A DNA stretch of 64,000 nucleotides from an uncultured Methanosarcinales archaeon (lineage in GTDB: Archaea; Nanobdellota; Nanobdellia; Woesearchaeales; GW2011-AR15), in NCBI GenBank assembly GCA_964392465.1, contig CAYMPC010000002.1:14993-78992 (forward strand), in the 5' to 3' direction. Of this stretch, positions 20,634-50,199 are shown piece after piece. The position numbers and the translations under genes are program-made. Below the pieces are notes generated by a model. That model worked only from the letters and a program-made list of their open reading frames with translations. It ran no database searches and was not told the DNA's origin. Position 1 is the first letter of the stretch. Each line of letters starts with the position of its first letter.

Positions 20634-20634
20634 A

Positions 20635-23410: not shown

Positions 23411-23411
23411 T

Positions 23412-24792: not shown

Positions 24793-24804
24793 AGGCAAAT
24801 AACT

Positions 24805-24957: not shown

Positions 24958-25206
24958 TTTCACCTCTTATATAACTTATTATTTTATTAATAAATTAATA
25001 TATTTTGCTTTTTATTTTTATATTTTTCTAATTTTCTCTTTTTTCATTTTCCTCTTTTCTTTTTTTATTTATAATATCTAATAAAATATATTATTATACT
25101 ATAAATAATATAATATGAAAAAAGATTTATATTCTAAATTTTTAGAAAAGTTTATATACTATTTTATATCCAAAAAGATATAATAATTAAATAAGGCAAA
25201 GACACA

Positions 25207-25797
25207 GTGACTGGAAATAAATTAGAAAAAGAGATTATAGGTATTTTTAATAGGGATATTTCTTCATTTTTAAGCATAAACCAAATATCAAAAAGATTAC
25301 ATAAGGCTTATCCCTATATAAATTCCAAGGTAAATAGCCTTATAAATGAAGGAGTTCTGACTAAATTCAATATAGGAAGAAGCTATCAATGCTCAATTAA
25401 TTTAAATAGCGAGAGAGCAGTAGCACTATTAACACTAAATGAAGTAGAAAAAAAAGAAAAATTATTTCTGAAAATAAAAAACATTAATAAGGCACTTGAA
25501 GATATAAAAAATATTAAAAATGAGTTTAAGATATATACTATTTTATTATACAATAACTCTCTTATTTTTGTTCTTGATTATCTTCATGACCAAGAAGCAA
25601 TAAAAAATTTGTTTCATTCAATTAAGCAATTTGATTTGATTTTTTTAGATAAATCTTCTTTCAAAAAATATCTTCTAGCTAATAAAAGTAAACTGCATGA
25701 ACATGCAATCCTTTACTCCTATGAAAAATATTTTGAGATAATGGGCGAAGTCAAAGATATGTCGCTTCTCAGCAATATAAATAATTACCTAAAATGA
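25207..25797 (+). CDS. winged-helix-like protein co-transcribed with the giant surface gene
   Basis: GTG start; LSINQISKRLHKAYPYINSKVNSLINEGVL wHTH-like; 4-nt overlap with 25794. Confidence 0.5.
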   Translation: MTGNKLEKEIIGIFNRDISSFLSINQISKRLHKAYPYINSKVNSLINEGVLTKFNIGRSYQCSINLNSERAVALLTLNEVEKKEKLFLKIKNINKALEDIKNIKNEFKIYTILLYNNSLIFVLDYLHDQEAIKNLFHSIKQFDLIFLDKSSFKKYLLANKSKLHEHAILYSYEKYFEIMGEVKDMSLLSNINNYLK

Positions 25798-31700: not shown

Positions 31701-34700
31701 ACAGGATCTACAGTTGATCAGACACTTGCTTTTACTTTGCCTGGAATAGTGGATGATTATATAAACAGCACAGGATATTTAAATATTTTAGTACAGAGCG
31801 CAACAGACCTTCAGGGAGCGCCTCAAGTTAGACTTGACTCATTTACAGACTATATTAAACTAGATATATATTCAATTAAAACTATTTCTGGCTATCAGGA
31901 TATAAACATTAGCGCAGTAGATGGCGATGGTGTTCAAAGCTGTACTATTAATTTCATAAATTCAAGCAACTTTAAGTATAATGATATTTATACAAATAAA
32001 CTTTCTGATTTCTTTTTTTACAATTTAACAGATACTTCTGATTATTCAGATGGCATATACAACCTTACTGCAAATTGTACAGATGGCACAGAAATAAAAT
32101 ATGACTCTGTTTTAGTTAGAATCTACAATGTTGCTCCCTTAGTTGAATTGATGTATCCTTATGAGGGATTGAATTTTACAATAAACAATATTAATTTTAC
32201 ATGGAATGCAAGCCAGGAAACAGGAAATCCAACATGTAACCTTTACATAGATAATAAATTAAATGTTTCAGGGATAGTATCAACAAATAAACAAAACACA
32301 ACCCAAATAGTATATAACCTACCAGATGGCAATCATAACTGGTCAGTTTCTTGTACAAATCTTGCAGGAGTCGTAGGATATTCTGAAATGAGGAATTTTA
32401 CAGTAGATACTTTAGCGCCAGTTATAACTTTAAATTATCCTATAGAGAGCCAGAATATAAGCACACCTAATATAACTTTTAACTATACTCCTATTGATAC
32501 AAACATTTTGAACTGTTCTATTTATATTAACGGAATCTACAATAATTCAAACACTTCTGTAATACCAAACAGACAAACCTCATTTTACGTTACTAATCTG
32601 TTAGCAGGCAAATACAACTGGACAGTATATTGTACAGATAGATATAGTCAGACAGGGCAAAGTACTGTAAATAATTTTACAATTGATTTAGATAATCCAA
32701 GAATTATATTGACACTTCCAATACCAGGCCAATTATTTTTAGGAGGCTTAGTGCAATTTAATTATACTGCCTATGATGATATAGACCTTTATTTATCATG
32801 TAATATTATGGTAAACAATTTTAATGAGTTTACAGGATTATCATCTCCAAATGCTACACCTGTTGTTCAAAGTAAAGAAATAAATTCAGGATTAAAATAT
32901 TGGAATGTTACATGTACAGATGATTCAGGAAGACAGAACACAAGTGAAACATGGAACTTTACTGTTAGCGGACCTCCTACAGTTACGCCTATCTATCCAG
33001 CTAATATGACTTCTTTGAATGAAGAAAACATAACTTTTATCTATTTTGCAGATGACACAGATGGAATAAAAAATTGTTCTTTATACTTAAATAATCAATG
33101 GAATCAGACAAATGTTACTATCTACACAGGAGAATACAATAATTTTACCATAAATACTATGGCTGAGACTTATTATAACTGGTCTATGCAATGTTATGAT
33201 AATTTGTCTGTAAGTACAACCTCTGGATTATATAAATTCACTTTAGATAGAACCCCCCCAATAGTCTATATGTATGCTCCTTATGAAGGAAGCTTTTATG
33301 AAGATGGAGATTTAACTTTTAATTTTAGTGTAATAGATAACTTAGACTCTTCTTTGACATGTACAATATTTATAGATGATATAGCAAGAACAGCATCAAA
33401 CACAGACTTTGCAGCACAAAATGGAACGATACAAACAAGAATAGAAATAGATATTCCTGGAGGAGATCATTATTGGTATGCAGCCTGTACAGATGATTCA
33501 GGCCTTAGCTATTATGCAGATGCTGTTAATTTTCAAATAGGAGGATTACCAACAGTAACACCTATCTCACCAGGAGACAACACATATCACATTGGAAATG
33601 TTAGTTTTGTTTATTTTGCTTATGATAGTGATAATATACAAGAATGTTCTCTTTACATAAATGGTGAATATAATAGGACAAATACAACAATCTTCAACAA
33701 TGACTATAACAATTTCAGTTTATATAATCTAGAAGAACAATATTTAAACTGGTCTGTAAATTGCACAGACACCTTAGGATTATCAACAATGTCTTTAGTA
33801 TATTGGCTTACTATAGATAATACGCCTCCTATAGTAACTCTTGTCTCTCCAAATGGAACAAGTTCAACAAGCACAACACAGATTTTCAATTTTTCAATAA
33901 TTGAAAACACAATGAGCAGCTTGACATGTGATATTTTTGTTAATGGTACAAATGTAGATCCAGGATTTACTGCAACAAATGGATCAAACACAAGAACAGT
34001 TCCAGGATTAAACTATGGCACAAGTTTCTGGAATGTTACATGTACAGATGGAGCATTGCTTTTAGGAGTAAGTCAAACATATAATTTTACAATTACAGAA
34101 ACACCAATTATAACTCTTTTAAATCCACCAGATGATTCGGTTGATATAGACGGAAATGTTATTTTCAGATTTCAAGTAGATAATAATAATATCTTAAATT
34201 GTAGTCTTTATCTCAATGGTCAACTAAATAATTCTATTTATCCTCCTGATATTATTCCTTATGGTGAATCTATTATACAAGTAAATGGTTTGCAAGAGCA
34301 ACTTCTTAACTGGACAGTTGGATGCATAAACGATGATTATATAGAAGCAAATGCGACAAACGGTCCCTGGAGATTGCATGTCGACTGGAATTCACCTAAT
34401 GTCAGTTTAAATAATCCTGTTAATTCTGCAAATATTAGTCTTAGCACAATAACATTTAATTTTACTGCTTTTGATAATGTAGATGATGTTTTATTATGTA
34501 ATTTAACAATAAATGGAACTATAAACCAGACAAACATATCCTCTCAGAATGGGCAACCAACAACAACAACAGTAACAGGATTTGGTCCTGGAATATATTT
34601 CTGGAATGTAACGTGTACAGATGGTTATTTTGCAAATACGTCAGAAACATATTACTTTAATGTTAGTGCTATTCCTACAATTGAACTTGTTTCTCCTGAA

Positions 34701-37700
34701 CCAGATTACAAAGATAGAGACGGGGATATAATTTTTACCTATATCCCAAGTACAATTGACGAACTTGGCTTCCTTCAATGTAGATTGTATATAGATGATC
34801 TCTTATATAATTTAAACTCCTCTCTAACAGCAGAAGATAATGGGATAGAGCTTTCTTTTACAAACACATCTATTCCAGAAGGAGATCATACATGGAAAAT
34901 AAATTGTACTGATTTTGGAGGATATACAGGAAATTCAGAATATAGGAATTTCACAGTAGATTTGGTAGATCCAACAGTATATCTCACTTATCCAAATAAT
35001 ATAATCTTAAACAGTTCATTTAATTTTAACTTTACTGCAATAGATAATGTTGCATTGAATTTAGTATGTCTTCTGACAAACAATAATACAGAATATACAG
35101 GTATAACTGCAATAAATAACACACCGTATCTTTATCCGATCTCAGGATTGACAGACGGTTTATTTTATTGGAATGTAACATGTAATGATACTGCAGGGAG
35201 AACAAACACAAGTTTAACATATAATTACACAGTAGCTGAAAAACCAACAGTTTCTTTAATATCTCCTATAAATCATAATAGAACAACACAAACAGACTTT
35301 AATTTTACATATATCCCAAATGATAATTCAGGAGTTTTACAAAATTGTAGTTTAATAATTAATGGAAATCAAAACACAACAAATTATACTATTTATCCAA
35401 ATAATCAAAACAATTTTAGTGCTAGTAATTTCATTGATGGAGAATACAATTGGACAATAGAGTGTTATGATCCCTCAGGAAATAAAGGCAATTATACTCC
35501 CGCATATCAGTTAATAGTTGACTTAATGGGTCCAAATATTTCAATGATTTTCCCAACAGAAGGCGGAACTTATAATTTTGAGGATATAAATTTTACTTGG
35601 GTTGCCACAGATACATGGGCAACAAATCTAATGTGCAATATAACCTTAGATGGAAAACTAAATACAACAAACATAACTACACTATCCGGACAAATTACTA
35701 ATTATACAATTTATAATTTGCCCCAGGGAGAGCATAACTGGACCTTGGACTGTTGGGATGATTTAAATAATCCTTCAACAAGCGATACAATAAATTTCAC
35801 AGTAAATGCACCAGACTTGACTTTAAATGCTTCACATATAATATTTAATAACACTAACCCAGATGAAAACGAAACAATTACCATTAATGCAACTATTTAT
35901 AATATTGGAGGAGCAACAGCTTATAATGTTCCTGTAGAATTTTGGGATGGGATTCCAGAGGAAGGAGGATCAAGGATTAATGGGATACAGACAATTTCTA
36001 GTTTAATTGCTTCAGCATCCACAACAGTCAATGTTAGCTGGAATATTAGTTTAGGCATGCATAATATTTATGTTATAATTAATTATACAGGAGTTGAATT
36101 AAACAAATCAAATAATAATGCAACAGTGAATGTTTCTGTTTTACATGCTTTAATAAATTCTCCTTTAAATGAAACCTGGACAAATGAGACACAAATAGAA
36201 TTTAATTTTACAATGTGGGATTATACAGATAATCTGATAAATTATAGCATTATAGTAGATGGCATACCAAACGGACAAACAGGGAATAGTACAAGCAGCA
36301 TTTCAAAGCTTCTTAATGTAACATTGATAGAAGGCATGCATTATGTTTCAGTAAGGGCGACAGATTATTTATCTAGGATAAAAGATAGTCCTGCTATCTT
36401 ACTTTATATTGATCAAACACCACCAAAAGGAAGATTTGAAACTCCAGATGAATGGTGGTTCAATGATGCTAGCCCAGAAATATTTTTTAATATTACAGAC
36501 AATTTAGCACAAATCTTAAACTATAGTTTATACGTAAATGAATCTTTAGAAAATAGCAGCACAATAATAAATGGAACTTCAAAAAGCATAAACCTTACAG
36601 ACAAAATTAACAGCACTTATATTTTGACACTAAACTCAACAGATCTTGCACTTAACAAAAATTCAACTTCAATTAGAATATATATTGATACAGTAGAACC
36701 AACTATTGAATTATTATACCCTGTTGATTTTGATTTCTTTACAACAAACACAACACAACTTAATTTTAGTGTAAATGATAATTTAGATCCTTATATTGGA
36801 TGTAATATTACTTTAGATAATCAGGTAAATCTTTCTTACATAAATGCATCAAGACAACAAACAATAAATACAACAATTTATAATTTAAATGAAGGAACAC
36901 ATTATTGGAATGTAACTTGTTGGGATGGCGGCCTAAGTAGCAATATCAATAATATTAACACGAGTGAGACAAGAAGCTTTAATGTATATATCCCTCCTAT
37001 TATTACTCTTATTAGTCCTGAAAATAATAATTGGACAAATATTGAAAATGTCACTTTCTTTTATACAGTAAGCGATACAACAGGAATAGAAAATTGCTCA
37101 TTGATTTTGAATAATGAAATAATAACAACAAACACAACAATTTTCAATAATGCATTAAATAATTTTACTGTTTTTGATATGTATGGGATATATAATTGGT
37201 CTATCCAATGTTATGATAATACCTCAATGAGAATGTATGCTAGAACAGAGAACAGGACATTATATGTAGATACAATAGCTCCAGAACCATACATAGAGAC
37301 ATTAGATAACACATGGTTCAATGTTCCAAATCCAACAATATATTATAACATAACAGATAATTTAGACTTGCAAATAAATTATACCTTTTATGCTAATGGA
37401 ACAGCCAATGTTAATGGCACAGTACAAAATTCAACATCATCAAGCAGACAGCTTTTTGGATTGGGAAACGGAACTTATATACTTGTCTTAGAAGCACTTG
37501 ACGATGCATATAATAGAAGAAATTCAACATCAATTAGCATTAATATTGACACAGTTGCACCAACTATAACTTTAATAAGTCCAGAACAAGCAAACAGCAC
37601 AATTGATACAAATATCTTTTTCAATTTTACAGCCAATGATAATTTGGCAAGTAGTCTTATTTGTAATTTAACTATAGATAATATTAATAGAGAAACTTTT

Positions 37701-38738
37701 AATGTTACTCCAAATAACTATAATACCACTACATTGAGTATGACAGCAGGAACACATTATTGGAATGTAACTTGTGTAGATTTTGCAGGTAATGTTAATA
37801 CAAGCGAGACAAGATATTTCATTATTCCTCTGCCAGATTTGAAGATTACTGCTTTAGATATTAATTTCAATAATAGCATTCCAGAGGAAAGGACAAATAT
37901 TACAATTAATGCAACAATATATAATATAGGCGAGACAAATGCATATAATGTAACAATACAGTTTTTTGATGGGCATTACAGTAATGGAACACAGATAAAC
38001 GGAAATCTTACTTATAATATAAGTTCAGGTTCAAACATTACTGTGAACTTATCTTGGTATGTGAACTCAACAGGCAATCATTATATTTATGTAGTAGTTG
38101 ATCCTCCAATAGAAACAAATGGTTCTATATTGGAATCAAATGAATCCAATAATTATGCTTATAAATTTATAATGATTGGAAGCTATAATGTTGTTTATGG
38201 TAATCTGTCTGGATTCTTGAATCTAAAGGATATCACTAATAGAACATTGTATCAATGGGACATTTCAGAATATAATGGTTCAAGGATATATGCAATTGAT
38301 TATGACAGTAATGTAGAGTGGCAGGAGCTTCAAGCAATTTCAATGGATATAAATGATGCTTATATCTCAAATGATTTCAGTGAAATAGATATAGCATTAA
38401 AAATGGAAAATAACACAGATTCCATAAATTCAACATGGACATTAAACAATAACCCAGTAGTTACAAAGGATTATATTATTTTTAAAGAAAAAATACAAAA
38501 TGTGCCTTTAACCAATTCGACAAATACTTCTAATTTTATGACAGGGATATTATGGGATAAATCAGATGGAAATAATCAGTATAATGGTAGTCAAGACTTA
38601 GTATTTTTTACAACAGTAAATGTAAACCAGACAGGTATCTATGGAAATTATGATTATGAACTTAAGATCCCTTCAAATCTACGATTTTACAAAGGATCAA
38701 ATACAATTACAGTTGCTCTATATACAGAGTTGAATTAA
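25794..38738 (+). CDS. giant surface glycoprotein (4314 aa) with more than 20 tandem Ig-like 'W-N-C' modules and two CARDB domains
   Basis: N-terminal signal/TM. Modules of about 95 aa carry a recurring x-W-N-C-x-x-D motif (for example YRWNCLGYD, FYWNVTCND, HYWNVTCWD). CARDB-like segments near nt 35806 (NAPDLTLNASH...NATIYNIGGATAYNVPVEFWDG) and 37831 (LPDLKITALD...NATIYNIGETNAYNVTIQFFDG). Very high N-x-S/T sequon density. Confidence 0.85.
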   Translation: MNQTIKKRITGIFSILLLLIIFGVSLFIIYASDTESAYISLNKKQLFLEEILEVSLTFPTLDNITVDLFTPTSVYRYPYPSSTFRYKVNDIGTYRINVYNNRVLVASETFYVIEDPIIDNDTGGFDELGKEDIIDFFSLSKPSYNLGEEVIIIFNENHFSKSFKLSINSENQNLNYMNDLTNPTKFIPRKRGEYEVLVYDEGALLENETFYVLDITKPNNQTSQEEPLVLNNTNNISANNDKEIKNISAETNQLNEYTDSTVFNLFSPEGINFQIKNSKGYYLYTNLILNSVETGIKNLKLTTLSYLNLSKGKYNVEVYPELAGIKTITFKELNYQGEFELGLEELSGVKVGKQVPKKAYAIDPSKLEFSTGSLEVEAKGDILFKCKEWNFTEQKCYGEWELIRTITPGEIYALEINSADPAYAEVGLASINTEKSLYYPGETAKLTIVALDNEGYLVSNAYVALEIKDPLGNSTFLTTLEGNITEMERGIYEAYYNINEIEGNYTLFVSVIGNNVNNTMYSYFSVLDYYEFDILRNTPVTTDPWQSPFITQINILDLIDNKSYYNFTEILPSSFTITNGSYSEIIQQENYTLLKWYNLSNRSYIEYTAQPPLITPELYTLRSFIEYNGSVFTEARPWYLAVDPIIYSQVCAGQDNANGQDTYSATGCDGSYPGACGAGGDLLSCDDDQSEIHTASNNDRWAGVRINSYNSSMNDCLSITKVELCYEWWRTVGYDVARIAVDRDDWASPTTISSTVPGTTANPGVTCIEITSSEAWTCSNFDGTGTAAQAVAQLQRDGTSTSPPTARTVYIDLLYFNLTYQGDNSPNVTLNTPAAYYYNNTNNPANITFNCSIKDDIRSQNISLYITNSANTSFSYNQSCDITTQNGSCVWSLLLSNGEYRWNCLGYDNRSQSDWGDANRSIVVAAAGVDDFPTVSLTSPVDYFNSTSTTVQLTCLAEDTTDLYNISLYTNITGSFDLTDYITLDGGPNTSYLSVFTLSSIPNGTTFIWNCLVYDNSTLGQFAWASANRTVSIKENPIPLVYLFSPEDETTQTETTINFNCSATDDEDISSLALYSNRTGSFGLEQVVTFTGNSDTNVNYIFTQSGFSDTKGYVWNCKAIDNESNEVFYYTNYSFNVVLGAPNVTLNTPADESYDLDGNVALDCSAVDDQDIVSISLYHDLSGTMALNQTVYFPGTSDTSATVLFNLTGLSYGTRFKWTCSAEDNSSLVSYAAENRSLKIVNLYNLFAEKGEGTWTSPSNAAGKPDEVTANELLNTEYILRVYNFSGVPTQGTLLETYFSLSWYTASTGGNDLLRLSYSTTNSTYYNLTGIIYDKDTAKYANKVSSLTNQSYQITGTLTTADLSSLYLRVEGDQVTSPDYNTAYIDSIFLSIMFDYLPSPYAITKTPSAVYQNTYVDFYSNWTDDFYLGCYIFSINQTGVWQNSSCIPFLPGAWDERANYSMQITALPGTNVQWRFYANDSRSQWNSTTIQSFVVVDPNDIIKPTISNEQVQPLTNSSGSIFNISAIITDNYQVDRAYVELTNPNGQTTNYSMSSNGDLYYYYYQGWIGGNYSFRIIAFDSVNNSNYSSTYPIFNVTPVITTNYIYYERGDIVPIIGKGYSSLNNVTLNIFRANGTLMSGYPINISSNLTGGFLTSWLIPSSLAEKLDNYTIEGNDTYRNYLKNSTEIVVVVKSDDSNKYDNNYPTGTSVLTQLNQSDDITTTIVSRGTVAYIDLIYQDLILYGYTLDDLILYVEHEDYDTTSDPLVVQYYDGTTYQTATCGNIPFSSTNLLGACNLTPDLAAIPDKNDIRIRLTDNNAGVSGSDFSKIDIAYLDIEFSISNTLSVDILEPTNELTLVDYTDSVYNKAYGGSTADIVTNTQMMGTESSDYTKLESSDNTRWQSTATTSGHHVYQSFYMYTNIPESDITSIDVTWEGYMTKNGVNAEDIRIFAWDYTAGEYVDLNGEVAITGSTVDQTLAFTLPGIVDDYINSTGYLNILVQSATDLQGAPQVRLDSFTDYIKLDIYSIKTISGYQDINISAVDGDGVQSCTINFINSSNFKYNDIYTNKLSDFFFYNLTDTSDYSDGIYNLTANCTDGTEIKYDSVLVRIYNVAPLVELMYPYEGLNFTINNINFTWNASQETGNPTCNLYIDNKLNVSGIVSTNKQNTTQIVYNLPDGNHNWSVSCTNLAGVVGYSEMRNFTVDTLAPVITLNYPIESQNISTPNITFNYTPIDTNILNCSIYINGIYNNSNTSVIPNRQTSFYVTNLLAGKYNWTVYCTDRYSQTGQSTVNNFTIDLDNPRIILTLPIPGQLFLGGLVQFNYTAYDDIDLYLSCNIMVNNFNEFTGLSSPNATPVVQSKEINSGLKYWNVTCTDDSGRQNTSETWNFTVSGPPTVTPIYPANMTSLNEENITFIYFADDTDGIKNCSLYLNNQWNQTNVTIYTGEYNNFTINTMAETYYNWSMQCYDNLSVSTTSGLYKFTLDRTPPIVYMYAPYEGSFYEDGDLTFNFSVIDNLDSSLTCTIFIDDIARTASNTDFAAQNGTIQTRIEIDIPGGDHYWYAACTDDSGLSYYADAVNFQIGGLPTVTPISPGDNTYHIGNVSFVYFAYDSDNIQECSLYINGEYNRTNTTIFNNDYNNFSLYNLEEQYLNWSVNCTDTLGLSTMSLVYWLTIDNTPPIVTLVSPNGTSSTSTTQIFNFSIIENTMSSLTCDIFVNGTNVDPGFTATNGSNTRTVPGLNYGTSFWNVTCTDGALLLGVSQTYNFTITETPIITLLNPPDDSVDIDGNVIFRFQVDNNNILNCSLYLNGQLNNSIYPPDIIPYGESIIQVNGLQEQLLNWTVGCINDDYIEANATNGPWRLHVDWNSPNVSLNNPVNSANISLSTITFNFTAFDNVDDVLLCNLTINGTINQTNISSQNGQPTTTTVTGFGPGIYFWNVTCTDGYFANTSETYYFNVSAIPTIELVSPEPDYKDRDGDIIFTYIPSTIDELGFLQCRLYIDDLLYNLNSSLTAEDNGIELSFTNTSIPEGDHTWKINCTDFGGYTGNSEYRNFTVDLVDPTVYLTYPNNIILNSSFNFNFTAIDNVALNLVCLLTNNNTEYTGITAINNTPYLYPISGLTDGLFYWNVTCNDTAGRTNTSLTYNYTVAEKPTVSLISPINHNRTTQTDFNFTYIPNDNSGVLQNCSLIINGNQNTTNYTIYPNNQNNFSASNFIDGEYNWTIECYDPSGNKGNYTPAYQLIVDLMGPNISMIFPTEGGTYNFEDINFTWVATDTWATNLMCNITLDGKLNTTNITTLSGQITNYTIYNLPQGEHNWTLDCWDDLNNPSTSDTINFTVNAPDLTLNASHIIFNNTNPDENETITINATIYNIGGATAYNVPVEFWDGIPEEGGSRINGIQTISSLIASASTTVNVSWNISLGMHNIYVIINYTGVELNKSNNNATVNVSVLHALINSPLNETWTNETQIEFNFTMWDYTDNLINYSIIVDGIPNGQTGNSTSSISKLLNVTLIEGMHYVSVRATDYLSRIKDSPAILLYIDQTPPKGRFETPDEWWFNDASPEIFFNITDNLAQILNYSLYVNESLENSSTIINGTSKSINLTDKINSTYILTLNSTDLALNKNSTSIRIYIDTVEPTIELLYPVDFDFFTTNTTQLNFSVNDNLDPYIGCNITLDNQVNLSYINASRQQTINTTIYNLNEGTHYWNVTCWDGGLSSNINNINTSETRSFNVYIPPIITLISPENNNWTNIENVTFFYTVSDTTGIENCSLILNNEIITTNTTIFNNALNNFTVFDMYGIYNWSIQCYDNTSMRMYARTENRTLYVDTIAPEPYIETLDNTWFNVPNPTIYYNITDNLDLQINYTFYANGTANVNGTVQNSTSSSRQLFGLGNGTYILVLEALDDAYNRRNSTSISINIDTVAPTITLISPEQANSTIDTNIFFNFTANDNLASSLICNLTIDNINRETFNVTPNNYNTTTLSMTAGTHYWNVTCVDFAGNVNTSETRYFIIPLPDLKITALDINFNNSIPEERTNITINATIYNIGETNAYNVTIQFFDGHYSNGTQINGNLTYNISSGSNITVNLSWYVNSTGNHYIYVVVDPPIETNGSILESNESNNYAYKFIMIGSYNVVYGNLSGFLNLKDITNRTLYQWDISEYNGSRIYAIDYDSNVEWQELQAISMDINDAYISNDFSEIDIALKMENNTDSINSTWTLNNNPVVTKDYIIFKEKIQNVPLTNSTNTSNFMTGILWDKSDGNNQYNGSQDLVFFTTVNVNQTGIYGNYDYELKIPSNLRFYKGSNTITVALYTELN

Positions 38739-38739: not shown

Positions 38740-40959
38740 ATGAAAAAAGAGGAAAAAAAAAGAGTTATGGAAAATAGACAAATAAAAAAGAAAGTAGTAT
38801 TGTCTTTTTTATTGTATATTCTGCTCTTATTGTTTATAGATAAGTGTTATGCCCAAGAATGCAATAATAATAACACACCAGTTATAAAATATTTTTCAAA
38901 ATTTGAACTAAATGAAGGTGAGCCTTTTGAATATAAGTTTGATATACTAAATCAGTTGACAAATGAATTGGGAGAAATAAGCTTTTCATTAATACCTATA
39001 AATGCAACACCAGCGGCTATAAAAAATATAAGTATAGACAAAATATCAGGACTATTAAAATTCAAACCAGCAAATGAAGAAAAAGGAATCCAGACTTTTT
39101 TTGTTATTGCTACAACTTCTCAAGGATGTTATGATATTAAAAAAATAGAATTAATAATTTATGATAAGCCCAAAATATTAAATATCTCTCCTTCAAAAAG
39201 TTATATTGAAGTTGATGAGACAGACTATTTGAGATTTAGTATAAATGCTACTACTTCCTTACCTAATAACAACTTATTAATTGAATGGTATCATAACAAT
39301 AAGAAAGTAAAAACATCATCTAACTTTTTTACTTTATTCACAAATTTTTCAGATAGCGGAAAGCATTATATTGAAGTTGTCGTATCTGATTTAAGAGGTC
39401 TTAATTCGTCTTTTGAATGGGAGATAAATATAAAAAACATAAACAGGCCACCTTATCTAAAATATAACTTCCCAGATTTTGTTCTCACAAACGAAACAAA
39501 AGGAGAGCTATTTAATATTAACAATTATATATATGACCCTGATTTAGATAAATTAAAGTTTGAAGCTTTTTTTGTTGAAGAATTTAATCCAGAAATAATA
39601 AAAAACCAATCTAAAGTATTTGATATCTTCATAGATAAATTTGGTTCTTTTTACATCTCTCCCCAAATTAATATTTATCTTAAAGAGTATGTTAGGATAA
39701 ATGCATCAGATTCTGAGAATTATAGTATTTTAAGCAATCCGTTTATGTTGAAGCTTGCTAGCAGCGAAAATATAACTGTTTTGTTTATAAATTATTCAAA
39801 AAAAGAGGAATGTAAAGTTGAAATTCAATGTAGAGAATGGTCTTTATGTTTGCCTACAAATATAAGAACAAGGGAATGTTTTGATATAAATGATTGTAAT
39901 GGAGAAAACAAATCACTTTTGGAATCAGAAAAATGTGAATATAATGCTACGTGTTTTGATAAGATAAAAAACCAAAACGAAGAAGGAGTTGATTGTGGAG
40001 GGGTATGTGATCCTTGTCCTACATGTGAGGATGAGATTTTAAATCAGGGTGAAGAAGGAGTTGATTGTGGAGGTCCATGTTCTCCTTGTCCAAGTTGTAA
40101 TGATGGCATTTTAAACCAAGATGAGACAGATATTGATTGTGGAGGAAAATGTTCTTTGTGTGATTCTGGGAAAAGTTGTCTTCTTCATAAAGATTGTATA
40201 AGCTTTAATTGCATTAACAGTATTTGTGCTCTTGCAACCTGCGATGATTCTAAAAAAAATCAGGGAGAAGAAAAAGTTGATTGCGGAGGTCCATGTTCTC
40301 TTTGTCCAACATGTAATGACAAAATTCAAAATCAAGGAGAAGAAGGAGTTGATTGCGGAGGTCCATGTAAACCCTGCCCAAGCTGTTTTGATAAAATAAA
40401 AAACCAGGGAGAAACGTTTGTTGATTGCGGAGGTCCATGTAAACAGTGTGGAATCATAAAATTTTTTGGAGATAATAAATTGTATTTGTTTTTGTCAGGA
40501 TTATTTATTATTTTTATTGTCGCAATTGTCTTTGTAAAGTTAGTGTATTTTAGGAATGAGCTAATTTCAATCTCAAATTTATCAAAATTCTTCAAGTTTT
40601 TGCCTGCAACACTCCCTGATAATTATCAAGAGATAATTATAAAGACTATTAATCAATTAAATGAAACAAAACAAAAGGCATATAACTCAGAAGACAAACA
40701 AAAGATAGTTACAGATCTAAATAATATAATCAATTCTTTTTTTAGTCAGTTATTTGAGATTGAAGGCACATTTTCAAAAGGCAGTTTAAAAGCAACAATT
40801 AGGCAGAAAATAAAAAACCCTTTTTTATTGGAGCTTTTTATGAAAGTTTATACTTTCTCACTAAATGTTAATCCAGAAACACCACTTTTCAAAATTGATT
40901 TTATCCAAAAAGTAGATGAGCTGATAAAAATAATAAATCTAATAAGAGAAACTATATGA
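38740..40959 (+). CDS. type-I membrane protein with seven tandem 'NQGEEGVDCGGPCxPCPxC' cysteine-rich repeats
   Basis: Signal peptide, Ig-like region, tandem repeats from nt 39950-40450, C-terminal TM (FLSGLFIIFIVAIVFVKLVYF), cytoplasmic tail. Confidence 0.75.
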   Translation: MKKEEKKRVMENRQIKKKVVLSFLLYILLLLFIDKCYAQECNNNNTPVIKYFSKFELNEGEPFEYKFDILNQLTNELGEISFSLIPINATPAAIKNISIDKISGLLKFKPANEEKGIQTFFVIATTSQGCYDIKKIELIIYDKPKILNISPSKSYIEVDETDYLRFSINATTSLPNNNLLIEWYHNNKKVKTSSNFFTLFTNFSDSGKHYIEVVVSDLRGLNSSFEWEINIKNINRPPYLKYNFPDFVLTNETKGELFNINNYIYDPDLDKLKFEAFFVEEFNPEIIKNQSKVFDIFIDKFGSFYISPQINIYLKEYVRINASDSENYSILSNPFMLKLASSENITVLFINYSKKEECKVEIQCREWSLCLPTNIRTRECFDINDCNGENKSLLESEKCEYNATCFDKIKNQNEEGVDCGGVCDPCPTCEDEILNQGEEGVDCGGPCSPCPSCNDGILNQDETDIDCGGKCSLCDSGKSCLLHKDCISFNCINSICALATCDDSKKNQGEEKVDCGGPCSLCPTCNDKIQNQGEEGVDCGGPCKPCPSCFDKIKNQGETFVDCGGPCKQCGIIKFFGDNKLYLFLSGLFIIFIVAIVFVKLVYFRNELISISNLSKFFKFLPATLPDNYQEIIIKTINQLNETKQKAYNSEDKQKIVTDLNNIINSFFSQLFEIEGTFSKGSLKATIRQKIKNPFLLELFMKVYTFSLNVNPETPLFKIDFIQKVDELIKIINLIRETI
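39950..40450 (+). repeat. intragenic tandem DNA repeat (units of about 75-100 bp) encoding the DCGGPC modules
   Basis: Repeated aatcagggtgaagaaggagttgattgtggaggtccatg-like units. These produce the spurious minus-strand 'MDLRNQ' ORFs in the track. Confidence 0.7.
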
Positions 40960-43900
40960 GCAATAACTTTATTCACAAAAATAGGAAAATATATACAAAA
41001 GTTCTTCTAATTAATTTTATTTTGCTTTTATCTTTTATTATTGTAAAAGGAGAGTTTCTCTACTTGGAAAAAACAGAATTTACAATTGGAGAAACAGTTT
41101 CTATAATTACACAAGGGCCGCTTGAGACAGCATCTCTTGAGATATTGTCTCCTTCTAATATCTATAGATATCTAGGTGTGCCTCAGACAGAATTGAAGTT
41201 TGTTCCAAAGGAAATTGGCAATTATGAAATAAGACTTAGTGATCAAAATGGAATTGTTCTTCAGTCACTTTTTTTTACTGTTTCCGATATAACTTCTGCA
41301 ACTGACTTAAATTTTACCTTAACTGAAAAAGAACAGCCAACTATTTTAATAAAAAACAGCTTTAATCAAGAATTGATTACAGATTATTTGATATATAATC
41401 AATCAGAGGAGATTATTTTTTCATCAGAAACATTGGGAGCATTTGAAACAACAGAAACACTTTCTTCTTTGATATTTTCTCAGCAAAAATATGATCTTGA
41501 ATTGATTATGAATAGAACAAGTGTTAAAAATATGATTTTTTACAATATTACTTTTGATCAAACCTTTGAATTAGGGTTTGAAGAAATGCCTAATGAATCT
41601 GTTTCTAATTATTTTTTGAGCAATGAAAGAATAAGGCGCATTGATAAAGTATATGCAATTGATCCTACTAAGATAAAATTTGATTCTGCTGTAATTACTT
41701 TTATTGCAAGTGGTAATGAGCTCTATAAATGCAAAGACTATAATTTTACCAATAGGACTTGCTACGGAGAGCATGTAAAAATAATGGACATGATTCCCGG
41801 TATGGAATATAATTTTACCTTAACTCCAGAAGACCCTCAATATACAGAGACAACAAGCAATACAGCAGGATGTAGTTGTACAAATACATGCACAACAGGA
41901 ACAGGAGGAGCCTCAAGTTGCACAGCATCATGCAATGATTATTGTGACATCAATTTTACAATACCTTCAGGAGCTATTTCAGGATGGCTTGAGAAAGTTA
42001 GTTATAGTGTTACAGTTACTTTGTCAGGAACAGGAACTTCTGTTAGTGCCCTTCACGAAGGTAGGCTTGATAAAGATGAAATAATTAATAGTGGAAATGA
42101 TGTACAAATAGGAACATCGACAATTTCTACTAAAGCAACCAATAATATTGTTTTTGAAAATATTAATATGCCAGACCCTTATGTCTCAACTTCTTTTGAT
42201 GAGACAAACTGCACTTGGTCAAATGGATATTGTACCTGGAAGCCATTTTTATCTTCTTCTTATACATGTACAGGAAACAGAAGAACTTGCATAACTACAA
42301 TTTCTTTAACTTTGATTAATTACACTTGGAACTATACAGTAGATACTATTAATCCAACAATATCCTTTGGCAATCCTGCCAATAATAGCTTTATCAATAC
42401 AAATTCAAATCTTTTTTTCTACACTCCAAACGATAATCTCGATTTAAAAAATTGTTCTATTTATCTAAATGGAGTTTTAAACCAAACAAACACTACCTTG
42501 ACAAAAGGGGCTGAGACAACATTGTATGTAACAAATATGAACGATGGATATTATTCATGGTATATCTTATGTTATGACACCAATCTTAATTCAAACACAA
42601 GCGGAACAAGATATCTTACAATAGATACAATTGCGCCTTCTGTCTCTTATATATGGCCAACTCCATATAATCAATCTTATTTGCAGGTTAATTATTTAGT
42701 TGTTAATGTAAGTCATATAGAATCAAATCCTGATAAACTAATCTTTAACTGGAATAAAAGCATTACAACTCAACCTTACACAGGTAGCTTTACTAATATA
42801 AGTAAAATAGGTTTATCTGAGGGTTTATACTATTATAATTTAAGTATTAATGATAGCGCCTCTAATACAAATGCAACAGGCACTTATTGGGTTGTTATAG
42901 ATACAATAAATCCGCAAGTCTCTTTAAATGAGCCATTAAATAATAATTGGATAAATTATAACACAAGTATTAGATTTAATTTTACGCCGACAGACACTAA
43001 TATCCAAAATTGCACATTATATGGGAATTTTACAGGGACAGGATTATTTGAAAAAAATGAAACAAATCTCAATCCAGTCTCTGGAATTAAAAACAATTTC
43101 AACACTATAAATATCAAGGACGGAATTTATGTATGGAATGTGTTGTGCTATGATAAATCCGGAAGGAGCGCATGGGCAATTTCAAATTATACATTAAAAG
43201 TTGATGCAAGCATTCCACTAGTAACTTTATTAGAGCCATATAACAATACTTTATGGAATGAATCAAGTACTGTGATGTTCAACTATACTGTAACAGATAG
43301 TTCAAATATAATTAATAATTGTACCTTGGAAGTTAAATCTAATATTACAACTTTGTATTTTGAAGATACAAGTATAGAAACAGTAATAAAACAAAATTTT
43401 ACAGTTGAATTGTCTAACAACAAATTCAATTGGACAATATTATGCACAGATGTAGCTGGAAACACAAACAGTATCTATCCAGGGTATTATAATCTTACTG
43501 TTGCAGTTGGAGAAGACACAGTTGGACCAAATATAGTTTTAGAGAGCCCACAAAATTCTAATTGGACAAATATAAATAACATTACACTTATTTATACACC
43601 TACAGACAATTCTCTTATAAATAATTGCTCTCTCTATGTAAATGATGTCTATAACCAAACAGACATAGAAGTAGAAAATGAAGTTTCTAATTTCTTTGTA
43701 TTGAATAAGACAAAAGAAGGTATATATTCTTGGTATATCAATTGCACTGATAATTCAACAAATAAGAACAACAGAAAATCACAAGACACATGGACTTTTA
43801 TAGTTGATCAAAGCAATCCATCACTATATCTTGTATCCCCTATTAATTTTTTTAATACAACAAATTTGAATATTAATTTTACCTGGCTTTTAATTGACTT

Positions 43901-46900
43901 ATTTTCTCAAAATATGTACTGCGATTTAATTGTTAACAATTCATTAGAGGCATCTTTAAAATTAACACAAAATAACACTTATACAAATCAGACAGCTTAC
44001 TTGACAAACGATGGAGTATATTATTGGAATGTTACATGCAGAGATGAAGCATACAATTATAATGTTTCACAGACAAGAGCTTTTACAATAGATAGTACAA
44101 TCCCTTATATTGATCTTATTCTACCTGAAAACGGAAATACAAGTACAACAGGAGATATTACTTTTTATCATATCCCTAGTGATAATACAAGCGGCTTAAA
44201 TAATTGTATTTTATATCTTAATGGACTTGAAGAAAATTCTTCTTTTGTATTACTTAATAATCAGCAAAACAATTTTACAAAAATAAATTTGGTTTCAGGA
44301 AATTATAATTGGCAGGTTAACTGCACAGATAAACTTGGTAATAAGGGTTATTCAGAAACAAGGACTTTTTCTGTTGATAATATAGCACCAAAAACAAACA
44401 GTTATCAAGCAATACCTACAACAGCAGATCTCTCCCAAAGCGTAAATATCTTTGTAAATGTTACAGATAATTCTGGATTAAACATAGTTATAGCACAGAT
44501 AATGAAACCTAGTGGTGCAACTACTAATTACACAATGACATTATATTCAACAGATATATATAATTTAACTTATATAGATACAACAGAAAGAGGTACTTAT
44601 ACAGTTAATATTTTCTCTAACGATACTTATGGAAATTTGAATATCTCAAAAAATTATTATTTTTATGTAAGCGCAGGAATCTTTGTCAACAAAATATACT
44701 TTGATAGGGGAGAAACAGTATATATAACAGGAGGGGGTTTTGATCCAGGAGATAATATAACACTAAATATAACAGATAAATATGGGATAACTGCACTTAA
44801 TTCTCCAATAAAAGATATTATTGTGAACTCAACAGGCGGATTTGCTACAACATGGAATATAAGTACAGCAAATGGCCAAGCAACAGGAAACTATACAATT
44901 TTAGGTTATGATGTTAATTCTCCAGGACAAGCAGGAACAAATTATGCTTATCTAGTTAGAAGGTTGACAGCAGCAAATCTTGATGATAAAAATACAGCAG
45001 GATTAGTTGTTAATTCTTTAGTAAATGAATCAGATACACAATATTCAACAATAGTTCCTGGAGCAGGAATTGATCTTTTAAATTTCACTTGGGTTAATAT
45101 TGTTCCAGATAATCAAGTTATTTCTGATGTAAGATTTTACATGCAGCATTATGAGACAGCACAATATAATGTATATCTTGAGTGGTATAATTCTTCAAAT
45201 GGAGTATGGACAAGGGTCTGTACTATTCTGACGACGGCAACCGAAAAAATTGATACATGCGATTTAAATGATGAAGTTAAGACTTCTTCTGAAGCAAACT
45301 ATCTTCAATTAAGATTAACTGATAATAATGGTCTTGGAGCATCAACAGGAAACTGGGTTAATTTGAATTTTGCTTATTTAGAAGTAACCTTTACAACCCT
45401 TACTCTTGATAAAGAGAGTTATGTTCAGGGAGAAAAAGTTAATATTTCAGGAAGCAGGTGGCCGGTAAACACAGAACTTACATTAAATATTAGTAAAACA
45501 GATAGCACAACAGATCAACAAACAACAACAACAGATGCAAACGGAAATTTTAATTCAATCTATAATATCAGTTATGGTGCTCCTCTTGGCAGATTCAACA
45601 TAACTGTTTTTGTAACAACAAACCCAGATGATACAGAGGAGACCTATTTCTATGTAGTAAAAAGAAATTCTTCAATTGCAACAGATAAGTTATATTACGG
45701 CAGAGCTGAAACAGTAAATATTACAGGAAGGGGATTTTCTCCTGATGCCAACATTACTATTTTGATTTATGACGCGCAAAATTTTTTGAGATTGAATACA
45801 AGCGTTATTTCTGATAATATACCTAATGGAACCATGGAATACTTATGGTCAATTCCTTATGCTTATAGCGGCTATTATGGAAAACACACTATAATAGTAA
45901 ACGATAAATTATACCCTAACTTAAACGGAACTGCAAATATTACGGTTGGTATACTAACAACAAATTCTACAAAATTAGAAAACTCGATTTTATCTGATGA
46001 AACCTCAAAAGTAAATCAATCAGACAATATAACTGCCAGTCTTGCTGTATATAATGGTGTTGAAGATTATATGAGTTTTAATTTTTTGGACGCAAGCACT
46101 TCAAATTATGTACTCTCGAATTTCACATTCTATATTCAACATAATGAAGTACAAAACTATGATCTTGTTTTAGAATGGTGGAATGATACATCTTGGGTGG
46201 ATGTATGTAGGATAACCTACTCTATAGATAAAAAGATTGATTCTTGCGATTTATTGCCTCTTATTGAAAGAACCCCAAGAACAGCAAATCTCACTTTAAA
46301 GATTACAGACAACCAGAGTAATTTAGGTGTTTCAGGGAATATATGGACATATATAGATTATGTTTATTTAGTGTCCTGGGCAGATCCAGATTTTATAAAC
46401 CCTAAAGTAAATATATACTCTCCTTCAATTGATTCGATATATAATTATAGCCAAAGTGTTCCAATAGTAGTAAATATTTCTGAAAATGTAGAAATAGATA
46501 CAGTTTATGCCTTATTAGAGTGGTCTTCTGGCTCTGAAATTATTCTTTTGACTCCTTTAAATATCAATTACTTCGGAGAGGGAATATATGAAGGATTTTT
46601 TACTAATACAAAACAGCTGGACTATTTTAATGTGACAATATTTGCTAATGATACAACAGGGAATTATAATGACACAGAAAAAACAAATTTCTCAATACAA
46701 TCCCCAGATTTGACATCAAATTCAAGTTACATTTTCTTCTCCAATGAGAACCCTGTTGAAAATGAAAACATTACATTAAATATTACACTCTTTAATAGAG
46801 GTAATTATGTAGCAGGGCAATTTACAGTTAGGTTTTTTGAGGGAGATTATACTTTTGAAAAACAAATAGGAGAAGATATAATAATTTCAAGCCTGAATTC

Positions 46901-49989: not shown

Positions 49990-50199
49990 ATGAATGAGTC
50001 AGCAGAGTGGGTTAAATTAGTCTATAATGAGACCCCAGAAAAAGCGAATGTAAAACAAGGTTATTTGTTTGATGAAGGCGATTTCTTTAGAGTTGTTGGC
50101 GATTCTTCTGAAACACTTGTAAGAAAACTCAAAGTCATTTCTATAACTAAAAAAGCTCAACCAAGGGTGAGAAACTATGAAAGAAAAATTAGGCTATAA
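49990..50199 (+). CDS. small hypothetical protein
   Basis: 69 aa; GGTGA Shine-Dalgarno-like sequence upstream; overlaps the next gene by 23 nt. Confidence 0.4.
   Translation: MNESAEWVKLVYNETPEKANVKQGYLFDEGDFFRVVGDSSETLVRKLKVISITKKAQPRVRNYERKIRL

What the first reader, a model, noticed from the sequence alone, without database searches (positions are those of the whole stretch)
38740..40959. Tandem 'NQGEEGVDCGGPCxPCPxC' cysteine-rich repeats in two paralogous type-I membrane proteins (38740 and 59311)
Seven near-identical units of about 30 aa lie between nt 39950 and 40450, each with an acidic putative Ca-binding stretch (NQGEEGVDCGG) followed by C-x-x-C-x-x-C. The repeat is visible at DNA level, and the spurious minus-strand ORFs there read MDLRNQ repeatedly. 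The same module occurs twice in the 59311-61206 protein (CIDTIKNQDETDRDCGGLKCNPC, CNDNFKNQGEEGIDCGGPCPPCE). That protein also has a Gly/Ser/Thr-rich linker, a TM helix and a cytoplasmic coiled coil. I do not recognise the module as a named family. It could be a small disulfide-rich metal-binding or ligand-binding knot displayed on a stalk.
Basis: seen in the sequence. Interest (0 to 1): 0.55.

Follow-up and report, generated by a model that had tools for sequence, protein, structure and literature searches.

The report
Unnamed cysteine-rich stalk repeat, archaeal surface proteins
Two membrane proteins of a small symbiotic-type (DPANN) archaeon carry tandem copies of a 24-residue, four-cysteine module that is common in microbial surface proteins but has no name in the domain libraries searched; it most likely forms a stiff, membrane-proximal stalk rather than a displayed binding knot.

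Summary
ORF 38740-40959 has six units, not seven. Each is 24 aa (72 nt), not about 30. They are 50-83% identical, not near-identical. The pattern is C-x13-C-x3-C-x2-C, with consensus CxDGIxNQGExGVDCGGPCxxC. ORF 59311-61206 has two units.

The units sit in a larger cassette next to the membrane: a 6-Cys Trp module (W), then A units, with a different 4-Cys module (B) inserted.

The 739-aa protein belongs to a DPANN family with at least 19 representatives. All share signal peptide, three Ig/cadherin-like domains, W-A3-B-A3, one TM helix and a cytoplasmic helical domain. The unit count stays at six while the head diverges to 27% identity. The gene is translationally coupled to two giant surface-protein genes in a syntenic cluster.

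Best reading: a disulfide-stabilised, possibly Ca2+-binding, fixed-length stalk. Disulfide pairing, metal binding and rigidity are untested. The two window proteins share only the cassette, and the second is multi-pass rather than type I.

The parts
38740..40959 (+). P1: 739-aa type-I membrane protein. Order: signal peptide, 3 Ig-like domains, W-A3-B-A3 cassette, TM helix, cytoplasmic helical domain.
   Evidence: ORF; hydrophobic segments at aa 15-38 and 579-609; AlphaFold model with family MSA; at least 19 family representatives with the same layout.
38872..39759 (+). Three tandem beta-sandwich (Ig/cadherin-like) domains, aa ~45-142, 145-232 and 245-340. This is the distal head.
   Evidence: pLDDT 85-94. 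Foldseek against PDB matches titin Ig triplets, cadherin ectodomains and IgCAMs at E 2e-13 to 3e-10. Mean identity across the family is only 27%.
39811..39951 (+). W module (aa 358-404): 6 Cys, invariant Trp, consensus CxPxWxCxEWxxCLPxGIxTRxCxDxNxC...C.
   Evidence: Alignment A5 of 23 sequences. Short beta strands in both models. No Pfam or PDB-sequence match.
39952..40161 (+). A units 1-3, starting at nt 39952, 40024 and 40096. Each is C-x13-C-x3-C-x2-C.
   Evidence: Regex and translation; TRF period 72; pLDDT 81-88 in the cassette model.
40162..40239 (+). B module (aa 475-500): a different 4-Cys insert, sequence DSGKSCLLHKDCISFNCINSICALAT.
   Evidence: Present at the same place in 18 of the 20 aligned sequences by a regex count, and apparently present in P0165 by eye. 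Also in P2 and alternating with A in rotifer protein P0055. Its only structural hint is a non-significant Foldseek match to a spider toxin, E=0.56.
40240..40449 (+). A units 4-6, starting at nt 40240, 40312 and 40384.
   Evidence: The 208-nt block A1-A3 is 71% identical to A4-A6.
40477..40554 (+). Transmembrane helix (aa ~580-605), about 10 residues after the last Cys of A6.
   Evidence: Kyte-Doolittle scan; helix 580-605 in the model.
40558..40956 (+). Cytoplasmic all-helical domain (aa ~607-738).
   Evidence: pLDDT about 90, helices only. Conserved at 25-47% identity only among the closer family members. No family match.
59311..61206 (+). P2: 631-aa membrane protein. Order: signal peptide, N-terminal domain, CGNGICE Cys motif, Gly/Ser/Thr linker, W-A-B-A cassette, 3 hydrophobic segments, Lys/Glu-rich tail.
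   Evidence: ORF; Cys map; hydrophobic segments; shares only the cassette with P1.
59938..60303 (+). P2 cassette: W (59938-60084), A (60085-60153), B (60154-60237), A (60238-60303).
25794..38738 (+). G1: 4314-aa giant surface protein. Its stop codon lies 1 nt before the P1 start.
   Evidence: Big_13, CARDB and MG2 domains; 241 N-x-S/T sequons; TAA-A-ATG junction.
40956..47600 (+). G2: 2214-aa paralogue of G1. Its start overlaps the P1 stop (ATGA).
   Evidence: G2-like genes follow the P1 homologue in L005 and in the P0165 locus.

Best explanation
The repeat is an autonomous extracellular mini-domain, here called the A unit. It has a 22-residue core with four Cys plus a 2-residue linker. It has no name in Pfam, NCBIfam or the PDB, yet it is widespread in surface proteins of DPANN archaea, CPR bacteria, Bacteroidota, Myxococcota and some eukaryotes.

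In the window it forms part of a membrane-proximal cassette. In P1 the cassette is W-A-A-A-B-A-A-A, and in P2 it is W-A-B-A.

The most likely mechanism is as follows.
- Each unit has almost no regular secondary structure. It is held by two intra-unit disulfides and possibly one Ca2+ ion bound by the invariant D3, N7, E10 and D14.
- Units stacked head to tail would make a stiff rod.
- In P1 this rod would hold three fast-evolving Ig/cadherin-like domains at a set distance from the membrane. It would connect them through a single TM helix to a cytoplasmic helical domain.
- P1 probably acts together with the two giant surface proteins to which its gene is translationally coupled, in cell-surface adhesion.

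Shown here: the anatomy, topology, distribution, fixed copy number, conservation pattern and gene linkage.

Inferred, not shown: disulfide formation and pairing, Ca2+ binding, rigidity, and partnership with the giant proteins.
For: Module identity:
- A consensus built from 362 units has invariant C1, E10, D14, C15, G16, G17, C19 and C22. D3 is at 94% and N7 at 92%.
- All four Cys are present in 1881 of 1940 units.
- Single-unit proteins in CPR bacteria carry exactly four Cys directly after an N-terminal TM anchor. The unit is therefore self-contained.

Location:
- In P1 the array lies between a signal peptide and the TM helix.
- Partner domains elsewhere are extracellular types: T9SS sorting domain, F5/8 type C, fibrinogen C, Kazal, CARDB, IPT/TIG and DUF6252.

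Structure:
- AlphaFold on the cassette gives pLDDT 79, and 81-92 over the A and B modules. Each A unit shows only a tiny beta bridge.

Spacer-like behaviour:
- Arrays of 2 to 38 units were counted among the 261 retrieved proteins.
- A two-unit profile finds 7,339 cluster representatives at E<=1e-3.

Fixed length:
- All 20 aligned sequences (P1 and 19 family representatives) show W-A3-B-A3 immediately before the TM helix.
- Mean identity to P1 is 27% in the Ig head and 65% in the A arrays.
- A1, A2, A4 and A5 are more alike within a protein than between orthologues. Sequence is being homogenised, yet the count stays at six.

Head: three Ig/cadherin-like domains.

Gene linkage:
- The junctions are TAA-A-ATG and an ATGA overlap.
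- The order G1-like / P1 / G2-like / eight further genes is syntenic in an independent genome.
- The P1-then-G2-like pair recurs in the P0165 locus.
- In a Pacearchaeota genome a giant gene is followed by a distant P1-like gene.
Against: - No coordinates were available from the models. Disulfide pairing and rod geometry were not measured.
- Natural Cys-loss variants are too few to fix the connectivity.
- In a crude scan of 261 proteins, the array lay within 40 aa of a hydrophobic anchor in only 85. It is not always membrane-proximal, although many of those proteins are fragments.
- The non-Cys identity of the A units across the family (58%) is higher than a passive spacer strictly needs. That would also fit a conserved binding surface or ion site.
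- A distant Pacearchaeota relative has only two units. A six-unit length is therefore not universal outside the core family.
- The full-length model gave low pLDDT over most of the array with its shallower MSA.
Confidence: 0.55

Rival explanations
1. The A units are themselves the binding elements. They would form a multivalent ligand-binding array, for example Ca2+-dependent recognition of a glycan or a host or partner surface protein, as LDL-A or cbEGF modules do. The Ig domains would play an accessory role.
For: - D3, N7, E10 and D14 are invariant or nearly so.
- The A arrays are the best-conserved part of the P1 family: 65% identity overall and 58% excluding Cys.
- A3 and A6 have position-specific signatures conserved across orthologues.
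- The module recurs with many unrelated extracellular domains.
Against: - Almost all conserved positions are Cys, Gly or acidic/amide residues, which are typical of fold or ion-site maintenance. The other positions vary freely.
- Copy number ranges from 1 to 38 among the proteins examined.
- In P1 and P2 the array is the part closest to the membrane, which is a poor place for reaching an external ligand.
Confidence: 0.2
2. The four Cys of each unit bind a metal (Zn2+, Cu+ or an Fe-S cluster) rather than forming disulfides. The array would then be an extracellular metal-binding or redox element.
For: - C-x3-C-x2-C-x2-C clusters resemble metal-binding motifs.
- 68 of 74 two-unit fragments give sub-threshold Pfam matches to FeoB_associated, best 19.4 bits against a cut-off of 27. 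A few match Methanobactin or zinc-ribbon models at E>0.1.
- Many DPANN archaea live in anoxic water, where disulfides are less favoured (general knowledge).
Against: - All these matches are below the curated thresholds and cover only the Cys/Gly-rich 'DCGGxCxxC' stretch.
- The module occurs only in predicted extracytoplasmic segments, alongside typical secreted domains. Some carriers are aerobic-type Bacteroidota T9SS proteins and eukaryotic proteins.
- The Cys count per unit is strictly even.
- In one variant, C15 is shifted by three positions (P0199). A disulfide tolerates that more easily than a metal site does.
Confidence: 0.1
3. The cassette is a juxtamembrane oligomerisation or signalling element. 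It would resemble EGFR domain IV or the TNFR cysteine-rich domains in role. It would couple events at the Ig head, or at the giant proteins, to the cytoplasmic helical domain.
For: - P1 has a receptor-like layout: Ig head, Cys-rich juxtamembrane region, single TM helix, and a well-predicted cytoplasmic helical bundle (pLDDT about 90).
- Unit number is fixed across the family.
- HerA-like and KaiC-like ATPase genes lie upstream in the same strand block.
Against: - Beyond the closer relatives, tail identity to P1 falls to 10-20%. P2 has a different, multi-pass C-terminus.
- Most carriers of the A unit have no TM helix or cytoplasmic domain next to it.
- No evidence for oligomerisation was obtained.
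Confidence: 0.1
4. The repeat number is an assembly artefact, or the array is a hypervariable contingency locus.
For: Tandem repeats can be mis-assembled in metagenomes (general knowledge).
Against: - Copies are only 56-78% identical in DNA. The longest related blocks are 71% identical.
- Nineteen independent homologues from different samples have the same six-unit layout.
Confidence: 0.01

Closest known systems
Rod-forming extracellular cysteine-rich modules: EGFR / insulin-receptor furin-like regions (e.g. EGFR domain IV) and TNF-receptor cysteine-rich domains (comparison from general knowledge)
   Same: Small modules with one or two disulfides and little secondary structure, repeated head to tail. 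They are extracellular, often juxtamembrane in single-pass receptors, and act as rigid spacers or scaffolds.
   Different: No sequence or fold match. The Cys spacing differs (C-x13-C-x3-C-x2-C). D/N/E/D positions and a CGG turn are invariant. The carriers here are prokaryotic.
Ca2+-stabilised mini-domains: LDL-receptor class A, Notch LNR, cbEGF and thrombospondin type-3 repeats (comparison from general knowledge)
   Same: Length of 24-40 residues, disulfide-knotted, with a cluster of conserved acidic/amide residues. They are used in long tandem arrays in surface proteins.
   Different: The A unit has four Cys, whereas the LDL-A, LNR and cbEGF modules each have six. No Pfam model of these families matches even at E<=10. 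Ca2+ binding is unproven here.
Other prokaryotic Cys-rich surface motifs: MopE-type putative metal-binding motif (PF11617), DUF4215 Myxococcus-type Cys-rich repeat (PF13948), Dicty_CTDC (PF00526)
   Same: They occur in the same kinds of giant or secreted proteins, and sometimes in the same polypeptide or locus. Examples are P0084 with MopE plus A units, P0062 with DUF4215 plus A units, and window ORF 13508-16603 with MopE.
   Different: These are separate motifs that lie next to the A units, not over them. None of their models scores on the A unit.
Eukaryotic IgCAM and cadherin type-I adhesion receptors (architecture-level analogue of the whole P1 protein)
   Same: Signal peptide, tandem Ig/cadherin-like domains, single TM helix and cytoplasmic domain. 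Foldseek matches to titin Ig triplets, cadherins, NCAM and contactin range from E 2e-13 to about 3e-10.
   Different: Sequence identity is 9-17%. Pfam detects no cadherin or Ig family in P1. The Cys-rich stalk and cytoplasmic domain are unrelated. The host is archaeal.

Membership tests
Unnamed 'A unit' repeat (CxDGIxNQxExGVDCGGxCxxC), defined here | Four Cys with spacing C-x13-C-x3-C-x2-C in a 22-residue core | tested here: met
   All 6 units of P1 and 1 of the 2 in P2 fit exactly. The other P2 unit has C-x13-C-x4-C-x2-C. In the family-wide sample, 1881 of 1940 units have all four Cys.
Unnamed 'A unit' repeat (CxDGIxNQxExGVDCGGxCxxC), defined here | Conserved D3, N7, E10, D14 and the C15-G-G turn | tested here: met
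   Present in all 8 window units. Frequencies come from 362 homologous units. The two-unit profile recovers 7,339 proteins at E<=1e-3.
P1 family (DPANN Ig-head / W-A3-B-A3 / TM proteins), defined here | Signal peptide, ~320-aa Ig-like ectodomain, W-A3-B-A3 cassette and single TM helix, about 690-765 aa in total | tested here: met
   BLAST of the ectodomain, W module and tail against retrieved proteins. Cassette line-up of 20 sequences. Alignment A3.
P1 family (DPANN Ig-head / W-A3-B-A3 / TM proteins), defined here | Does P2 (59311-61206) belong to it? | tested here: not met
   P2 shares only the cassette. It has W-A-B-A, a different N-terminal domain with only 2 partial homologues, and three hydrophobic segments.
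LDL-receptor class A (PF00057), Notch LNR (PF00066), EGF/cbEGF, TSP type 3 | Match to the family HMM and the family's Cys pattern | tested here: not met
   None of these families is listed at E<=1 for whole P1 or P2, or at E<=10 for 74 two-unit fragments. Each A unit has only four Cys.
Thrombospondin type-1 repeat (for the W module) | Match to the TSP_1 HMM or to solved TSR sequences. The resemblance in Trp/Arg/Cys layout was recalled from memory. | tested here: not met
   The W-module profile A5 found no TSR in PDB sequences. TSP_1 was not among the Pfam matches at E<=10.
Zinc ribbon / zinc knuckle / FeoB-associated Cys-rich (PF12669) | HMM score above the curated cut-off | tested here: not met
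   Best FeoB_associated score is 19.4 bits against a cut-off of 27. Zinc-ribbon models score at E>1.
Zinc ribbon / zinc knuckle / FeoB-associated Cys-rich (PF12669) | Metal coordination by the four Cys | not testable with these tools
   This needs metal analysis or a structure. The extracytoplasmic topology argues against it but does not exclude it.
Ig-like / cadherin-like beta-sandwich (P1 ectodomain) | Tandem beta-sandwich fold | tested here: met
   AlphaFold pLDDT 85-94. Foldseek PDB hits to titin, cadherins and IgCAMs with best E 2e-13 and probability 1.00.
Classical cadherin domain (PF00028) | Cadherin HMM match and inter-domain Ca2+ motifs | tested here: not met
   No Pfam cadherin hit. 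A 'DPDLD' stretch with nearly invariant D266 hints at a prokaryotic cadherin-like domain. This was not examined further.

The most novel reading that the evidence does not exclude
The A unit could be a previously undescribed family of Ca2+-stabilised, two-disulfide mini-domains present in archaea, bacteria and eukaryotes. In the DPANN P1 family, a strictly six-unit array would act as a molecular ruler. It would sit in an IgCAM-like transmembrane adhesion receptor that anchors or organises giant adhesin and fibre proteins encoded around it. The conserved cluster also encodes small secreted paralogues of the giants' C-terminal domain and a divergent signal-peptidase-like protein. Under this reading the locus specifies a new kind of archaeal host-attachment apparatus.
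Probability: 0.25. Interest if true: 0.6.

Novelty: new member of a known kind. Interest (0 to 1): 0.4.

Why it matters
DPANN archaea and CPR bacteria are thought to depend on attaching to other cells. Pili-like appendages have been seen at contact sites in groundwater samples (PMC7906910). Their surface proteins remain mostly unannotated.

A 24-residue module with thousands of carriers and no library model is a concrete gap. A curated model would annotate parts of many giant 'hypothetical' surface proteins.

The P1 family also gives a tractable test case. It offers a fixed six-unit stalk, a fast-evolving Ig head, and tight linkage to giant surface proteins. These could be used to ask how such small cells position adhesins relative to their envelope.

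The finding does not overturn any concept. Cysteine-rich spacer modules are a familiar design.

Tried and rejected
- Named family for the repeat. Searched Pfam and NCBIfam on both proteins. Searched Pfam on ten diverse carriers and on 74 two-unit fragments at E<=10. Searched PDB sequences with the single sequence and with the profile. Only a sub-threshold FeoB_associated match appeared.
- Literature. Motif strings and 'DPANN cysteine-rich' returned no paper describing the module.
- W module as a thrombospondin type-1 repeat, an idea recalled from memory. Neither the PDB profile search nor Pfam supports it.
- Strain-level copy-number variation. The P1 cluster has a single member. Genome and metagenome scans found no close relatives. 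Only orthologue-level comparison was possible, and there the count is constant.
- Source contig look-up by exact protein. Not on record.
- Disulfide connectivity from correlated Cys loss. There are too few informative variants. One unit lacking both C15 and C22, and one family lacking C15 with a compensating new Cys, are compatible with C1-C19 / C15-C22 but not decisive.
- 'Always membrane-proximal'. Only 85 of 261 retrieved proteins meet a crude 40-aa criterion, so this was dropped as a general rule.
- Small secreted paralogues and the giants' C-terminal domain as TasA- or bundling-pilin-like. No PDB-sequence, Pfam or NCBIfam support.
- P1 ectodomain as a fragment of the giant proteins. No BLAST similarity.
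Full report
**1. Observation**

ORF 38740-40959 (+) encodes 739 aa, and ORF 59311-61206 (+) encodes 631 aa. Tandem Repeats Finder reports period-72 arrays at 39969-40145 and 40254-40444, with scores 198 and 226.

Translation and pattern matching give six units in the first protein, here called P1. They lie at aa 405-426, 429-450, 453-474, 501-522, 525-546 and 549-570, which is nt 39952-40449. The second protein, P2, has two units at aa 259-281 and 310-331. A six-frame scan of all 64 kb finds these eight units and no others.

Each unit has a 22-residue core, C-x13-C-x3-C-x2-C, plus a two-residue linker. That gives 24 aa, or 72 nt.

The units are 50-83% identical in protein and 56-78% in DNA. 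They are clearly related but not near-identical. The minus-strand MDLRNQ reading is a trivial consequence of the repeat and is confirmed.

**2. The units sit in a larger cassette**

In P1, a 6-Cys, Trp-containing module (W, aa 358-404) comes before the units. A different 4-Cys module (B, aa 475-500) separates units 3 and 4. About ten residues after the last Cys, the transmembrane helix begins. P2 has the shorter form W-A-B-A.

BLASTP shows that P1 and P2 share only this cassette.

- P1 has a signal peptide and one TM segment, so it is type I.
- P2 has three hydrophobic segments after the cassette and then a Lys/Glu-rich tail. It is not a simple type-I protein.

**3. Is the module known?**

No library searched here names it.

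- Pfam-A and NCBIfam give nothing over the repeats in P1 or P2.
- Ten diverse carriers give hits only for their other domains: DUF6252, F5/8 type C, Kazal, fibrinogen C, DUF1554 and MopE.
- Seventy-four two-unit fragments scanned at E<=10 give only a sub-threshold FeoB_associated match, 19.4 bits against a cut-off of 27, over the Cys/Gly stretch.
- PDB sequences give nothing for the single sequence or for a profile.
- An AlphaFold model of aa 352-575 with a 61-sequence alignment has mean pLDDT 79, and 81-92 over the A and B modules. It shows almost no regular secondary structure in the A units.
- Full-text searches for the motif find no description.
- NCBI names large carriers after other domains: T9SS sorting, fibrinogen-like and IPT/TIG.

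InterPro member databases other than Pfam and NCBIfam could not be searched.

**4. Distribution**

The word-indexed search found 1,551 proteins at E<=1e-3. Named sources include Altiarchaeota, Nanobdellota, Woesearchaeota, Nanoarchaeota, Bacteroidota, a rotifer (Rotaria sordida) and a EukProt entry.

An exhaustive hmmsearch with a clean two-unit profile (alignment A2) was run over 1.84 billion cluster representatives. It found 7,339 proteins at E<=1e-3, 2,899 at E<=1e-10 and 601 at E<=1e-30. Arrays of 2 to 38 units were counted among the 261 retrieved proteins.

Two CPR bacterial contigs carry a single unit directly after an N-terminal TM anchor. The gene lies next to a gene resembling rodA/ftsW by inspection, and one contig also carries an rpoB-like ORF. 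The unit is therefore autonomous and truly present in bacteria.

The consensus from 362 units is C-[ST]-D-G-I-Q-N-Q-G-E-T-G-V-D-C-G-G-P-C-x-[AP]-C. C1, E10, D14, C15, G16, G17, C19 and C22 are invariant, and D3 and N7 exceed 90%. All four Cys are present in 1881 of 1940 aligned units.

**5. The P1 family**

Among the retrieved proteins, 19 representatives of about 690-765 aa match P1. Two are partial and one is 1139 aa. Most also match P1 outside the cassette, and nearly all match in the W module.

All 20 sequences, including P1, line up as W-A1-A2-A3-B-A4-A5-A6-TM. Mean identity to P1 by region is as follows.

| Region | Mean identity to P1 |
|---|---|
| Ig head | 27% |
| W module | 42% |
| A arrays | 65% (58% without Cys columns) |
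| B module | 44% |
| TM helix | 17% |
| Cytoplasmic tail | 21% |

A3 and A6 are clear positional orthologues. A1, A2, A4 and A5 are more alike within a protein than between orthologues. The A1-A3 block is 71% identical in DNA to A4-A6. Sequence is thus being exchanged within the gene while the number of units stays at six.

A distant Pacearchaeota relative has W-A-A-TM. No strain-level relatives were found. The copy-number test is therefore at orthologue level only.

The layout recurs in independent assemblies and the copies are diverged. Together these rule out an assembly artefact.

**6. The rest of P1**

A full-length AlphaFold model with the family alignment shows the following.

- Three beta-sandwich domains at aa ~45-142, 145-232 and 245-340, with pLDDT 85-94.
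- A TM helix at aa 580-605.
- A cytoplasmic helical domain at aa 607-738, with pLDDT about 90.

Foldseek matches the head to titin Ig triplets, cadherin ectodomains and IgCAMs at E 2e-13 to about 3e-10. P1 is thus built like an adhesion receptor: Ig head, Cys-rich stalk, single TM helix, cytoplasmic domain.

**7. Context**

The window is archaeal. It encodes an XPD-type helicase, a protein with the Pfam TP_methylase domain that I read as a diphthine synthase, and FtsZ. It has about 30% G+C. The nearest named P1 orthologue is from a Woesearchaeota archaeon.

P1 is translationally coupled to two paralogous giant surface proteins, G1 (4314 aa) and G2 (2214 aa). They carry Big_13, CARDB and MG2 domains and are dense in N-x-S/T sequons. 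The junctions are TAA-A-ATG and an ATGA overlap.

The order G1-like / P1 / G2-like / eight further genes is conserved in an independent genome, at 42-70% identity per protein. In another locus a P1 homologue is again followed directly by an 817-aa protein. In Pacearchaeota, a 2169-aa protein directly precedes the distant P1 relative.

**8. Interpretation**

The evidence fits a structural, membrane-proximal stalk best.

- The conserved positions are those expected to maintain a tiny fold: Cys, Gly, and an acidic/amide set that could hold an ion.
- The remaining positions vary freely.
- Copy number varies widely between unrelated carriers. It is fixed where the module connects a head to a TM helix.
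- The partner domains are varied extracellular types.

The span D3...D14 is twelve residues long, with D, N, E and D at positions 1, 5, 8 and 12. Ca2+ binding is a reasonable guess but remains untested. Disulfide pairing is also undetermined. Rare variants are compatible with C1-C19 and C15-C22.

Rival readings cannot be excluded with these tools and are scored in the rival-explanations section. They are a multivalent binding array, metal coordination by the Cys, and a juxtamembrane signalling or oligomerisation element.

**9. Verdict**

The module is not covered by Pfam-A, NCBIfam or PDB sequences, and the literature search found no description of it. It belongs to a familiar design class, small cysteine-rich extracellular repeats. 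I rate it a new member of a known kind, of moderate interest.

The more unusual lead is the conserved gene cluster around P1.

Noticed in passing
window 25794-54776; L005 1-11702: This is a conserved surface-structure gene cluster. The order is G1 / P1 / G2 / (-)282 aa / 343 / 267 / 246 / 339 / 170 / 242 / 167 aa. It is syntenic with an independent archaeal contig, GCA_964537195.1 CAZHYZ010000003.1, at 42-70% identity per protein.
   Followed up: partly
window 50177-50980, 51063-51803, 53472-54200; G1 38064-38735; G2 46926-47597: Three small secreted paralogues end in YYFY(L/V)E. They are homologous to the C-terminal ~190 aa of both giant proteins (alignment A4; BLAST). This suggests that small subunits and giant proteins share an assembly domain, perhaps in a fibre. 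No Pfam, NCBIfam or PDB-sequence family matches.
   Followed up: partly
window 54273-54776: This 167-aa membrane protein gives sub-threshold matches to signal peptidase I models in one region (aa 85-146). The models are the bacterial, SipW and archaeal types. It is conserved at the end of the cluster (63% identity in L005) and may be a dedicated processing peptidase.
   Followed up: partly
window 13508-25797: The upstream same-strand block encodes four notable proteins. One is a 1031-aa surface protein with a MopE-type Cys motif and sub-threshold PKD and CarboxypepD_reg matches. One is a 1345-aa protein with CarboxypepD_reg, a HerA/DUF87 ATPase domain and C-terminal TPR. One is a KaiC-like ATPase (23743-24792). 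One is a small 196-aa protein. This may be an export or assembly machinery for the surface cluster.
   Followed up: no
window 59713-59778 (P2 aa 135-156); consensus of alignment A3 just upstream of W: A second Cys motif, CGNGICExxExCxxCxxDCGxC, occurs in P2 before the Gly/Ser/Thr linker. It also occurs in many P1-family members directly before the W module, and in P0001, but not in P1 itself.
   Followed up: no
L002 1817-2626; L003 2040-2801: In two CPR bacterial bins annotated as Saccharibacteria, a single A unit sits right after the N-terminal TM anchor of a ~250-270-aa protein. The gene lies immediately upstream of a gene resembling rodA/ftsW by inspection.
   Followed up: no
P0055 (Rotaria sordida, partial); P0111 (EukProt 'Awhi'): Some eukaryotic predicted proteins carry A units. 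The rotifer protein alternates A and B modules many times. Whether this reflects contamination, horizontal transfer or ancient presence was not examined.
   Followed up: no
window 58617-59309 and 59311-61206: P2 is preceded by a 230-aa secreted protein whose stop lies 1 nt before the P2 start (TAA-A-ATG). This is the same junction type as G1/P1. No family was found for the 230-aa protein.
   Followed up: no
window 47629-48477 (-) and 56450-58249 (+): Two membrane proteins contain short CxxC...CxxC zinc-ribbon-like motifs. The 282-aa protein has it at its N-terminus and the 599-aa protein at its C-terminus (sequences). Their function is unknown.
   Followed up: no
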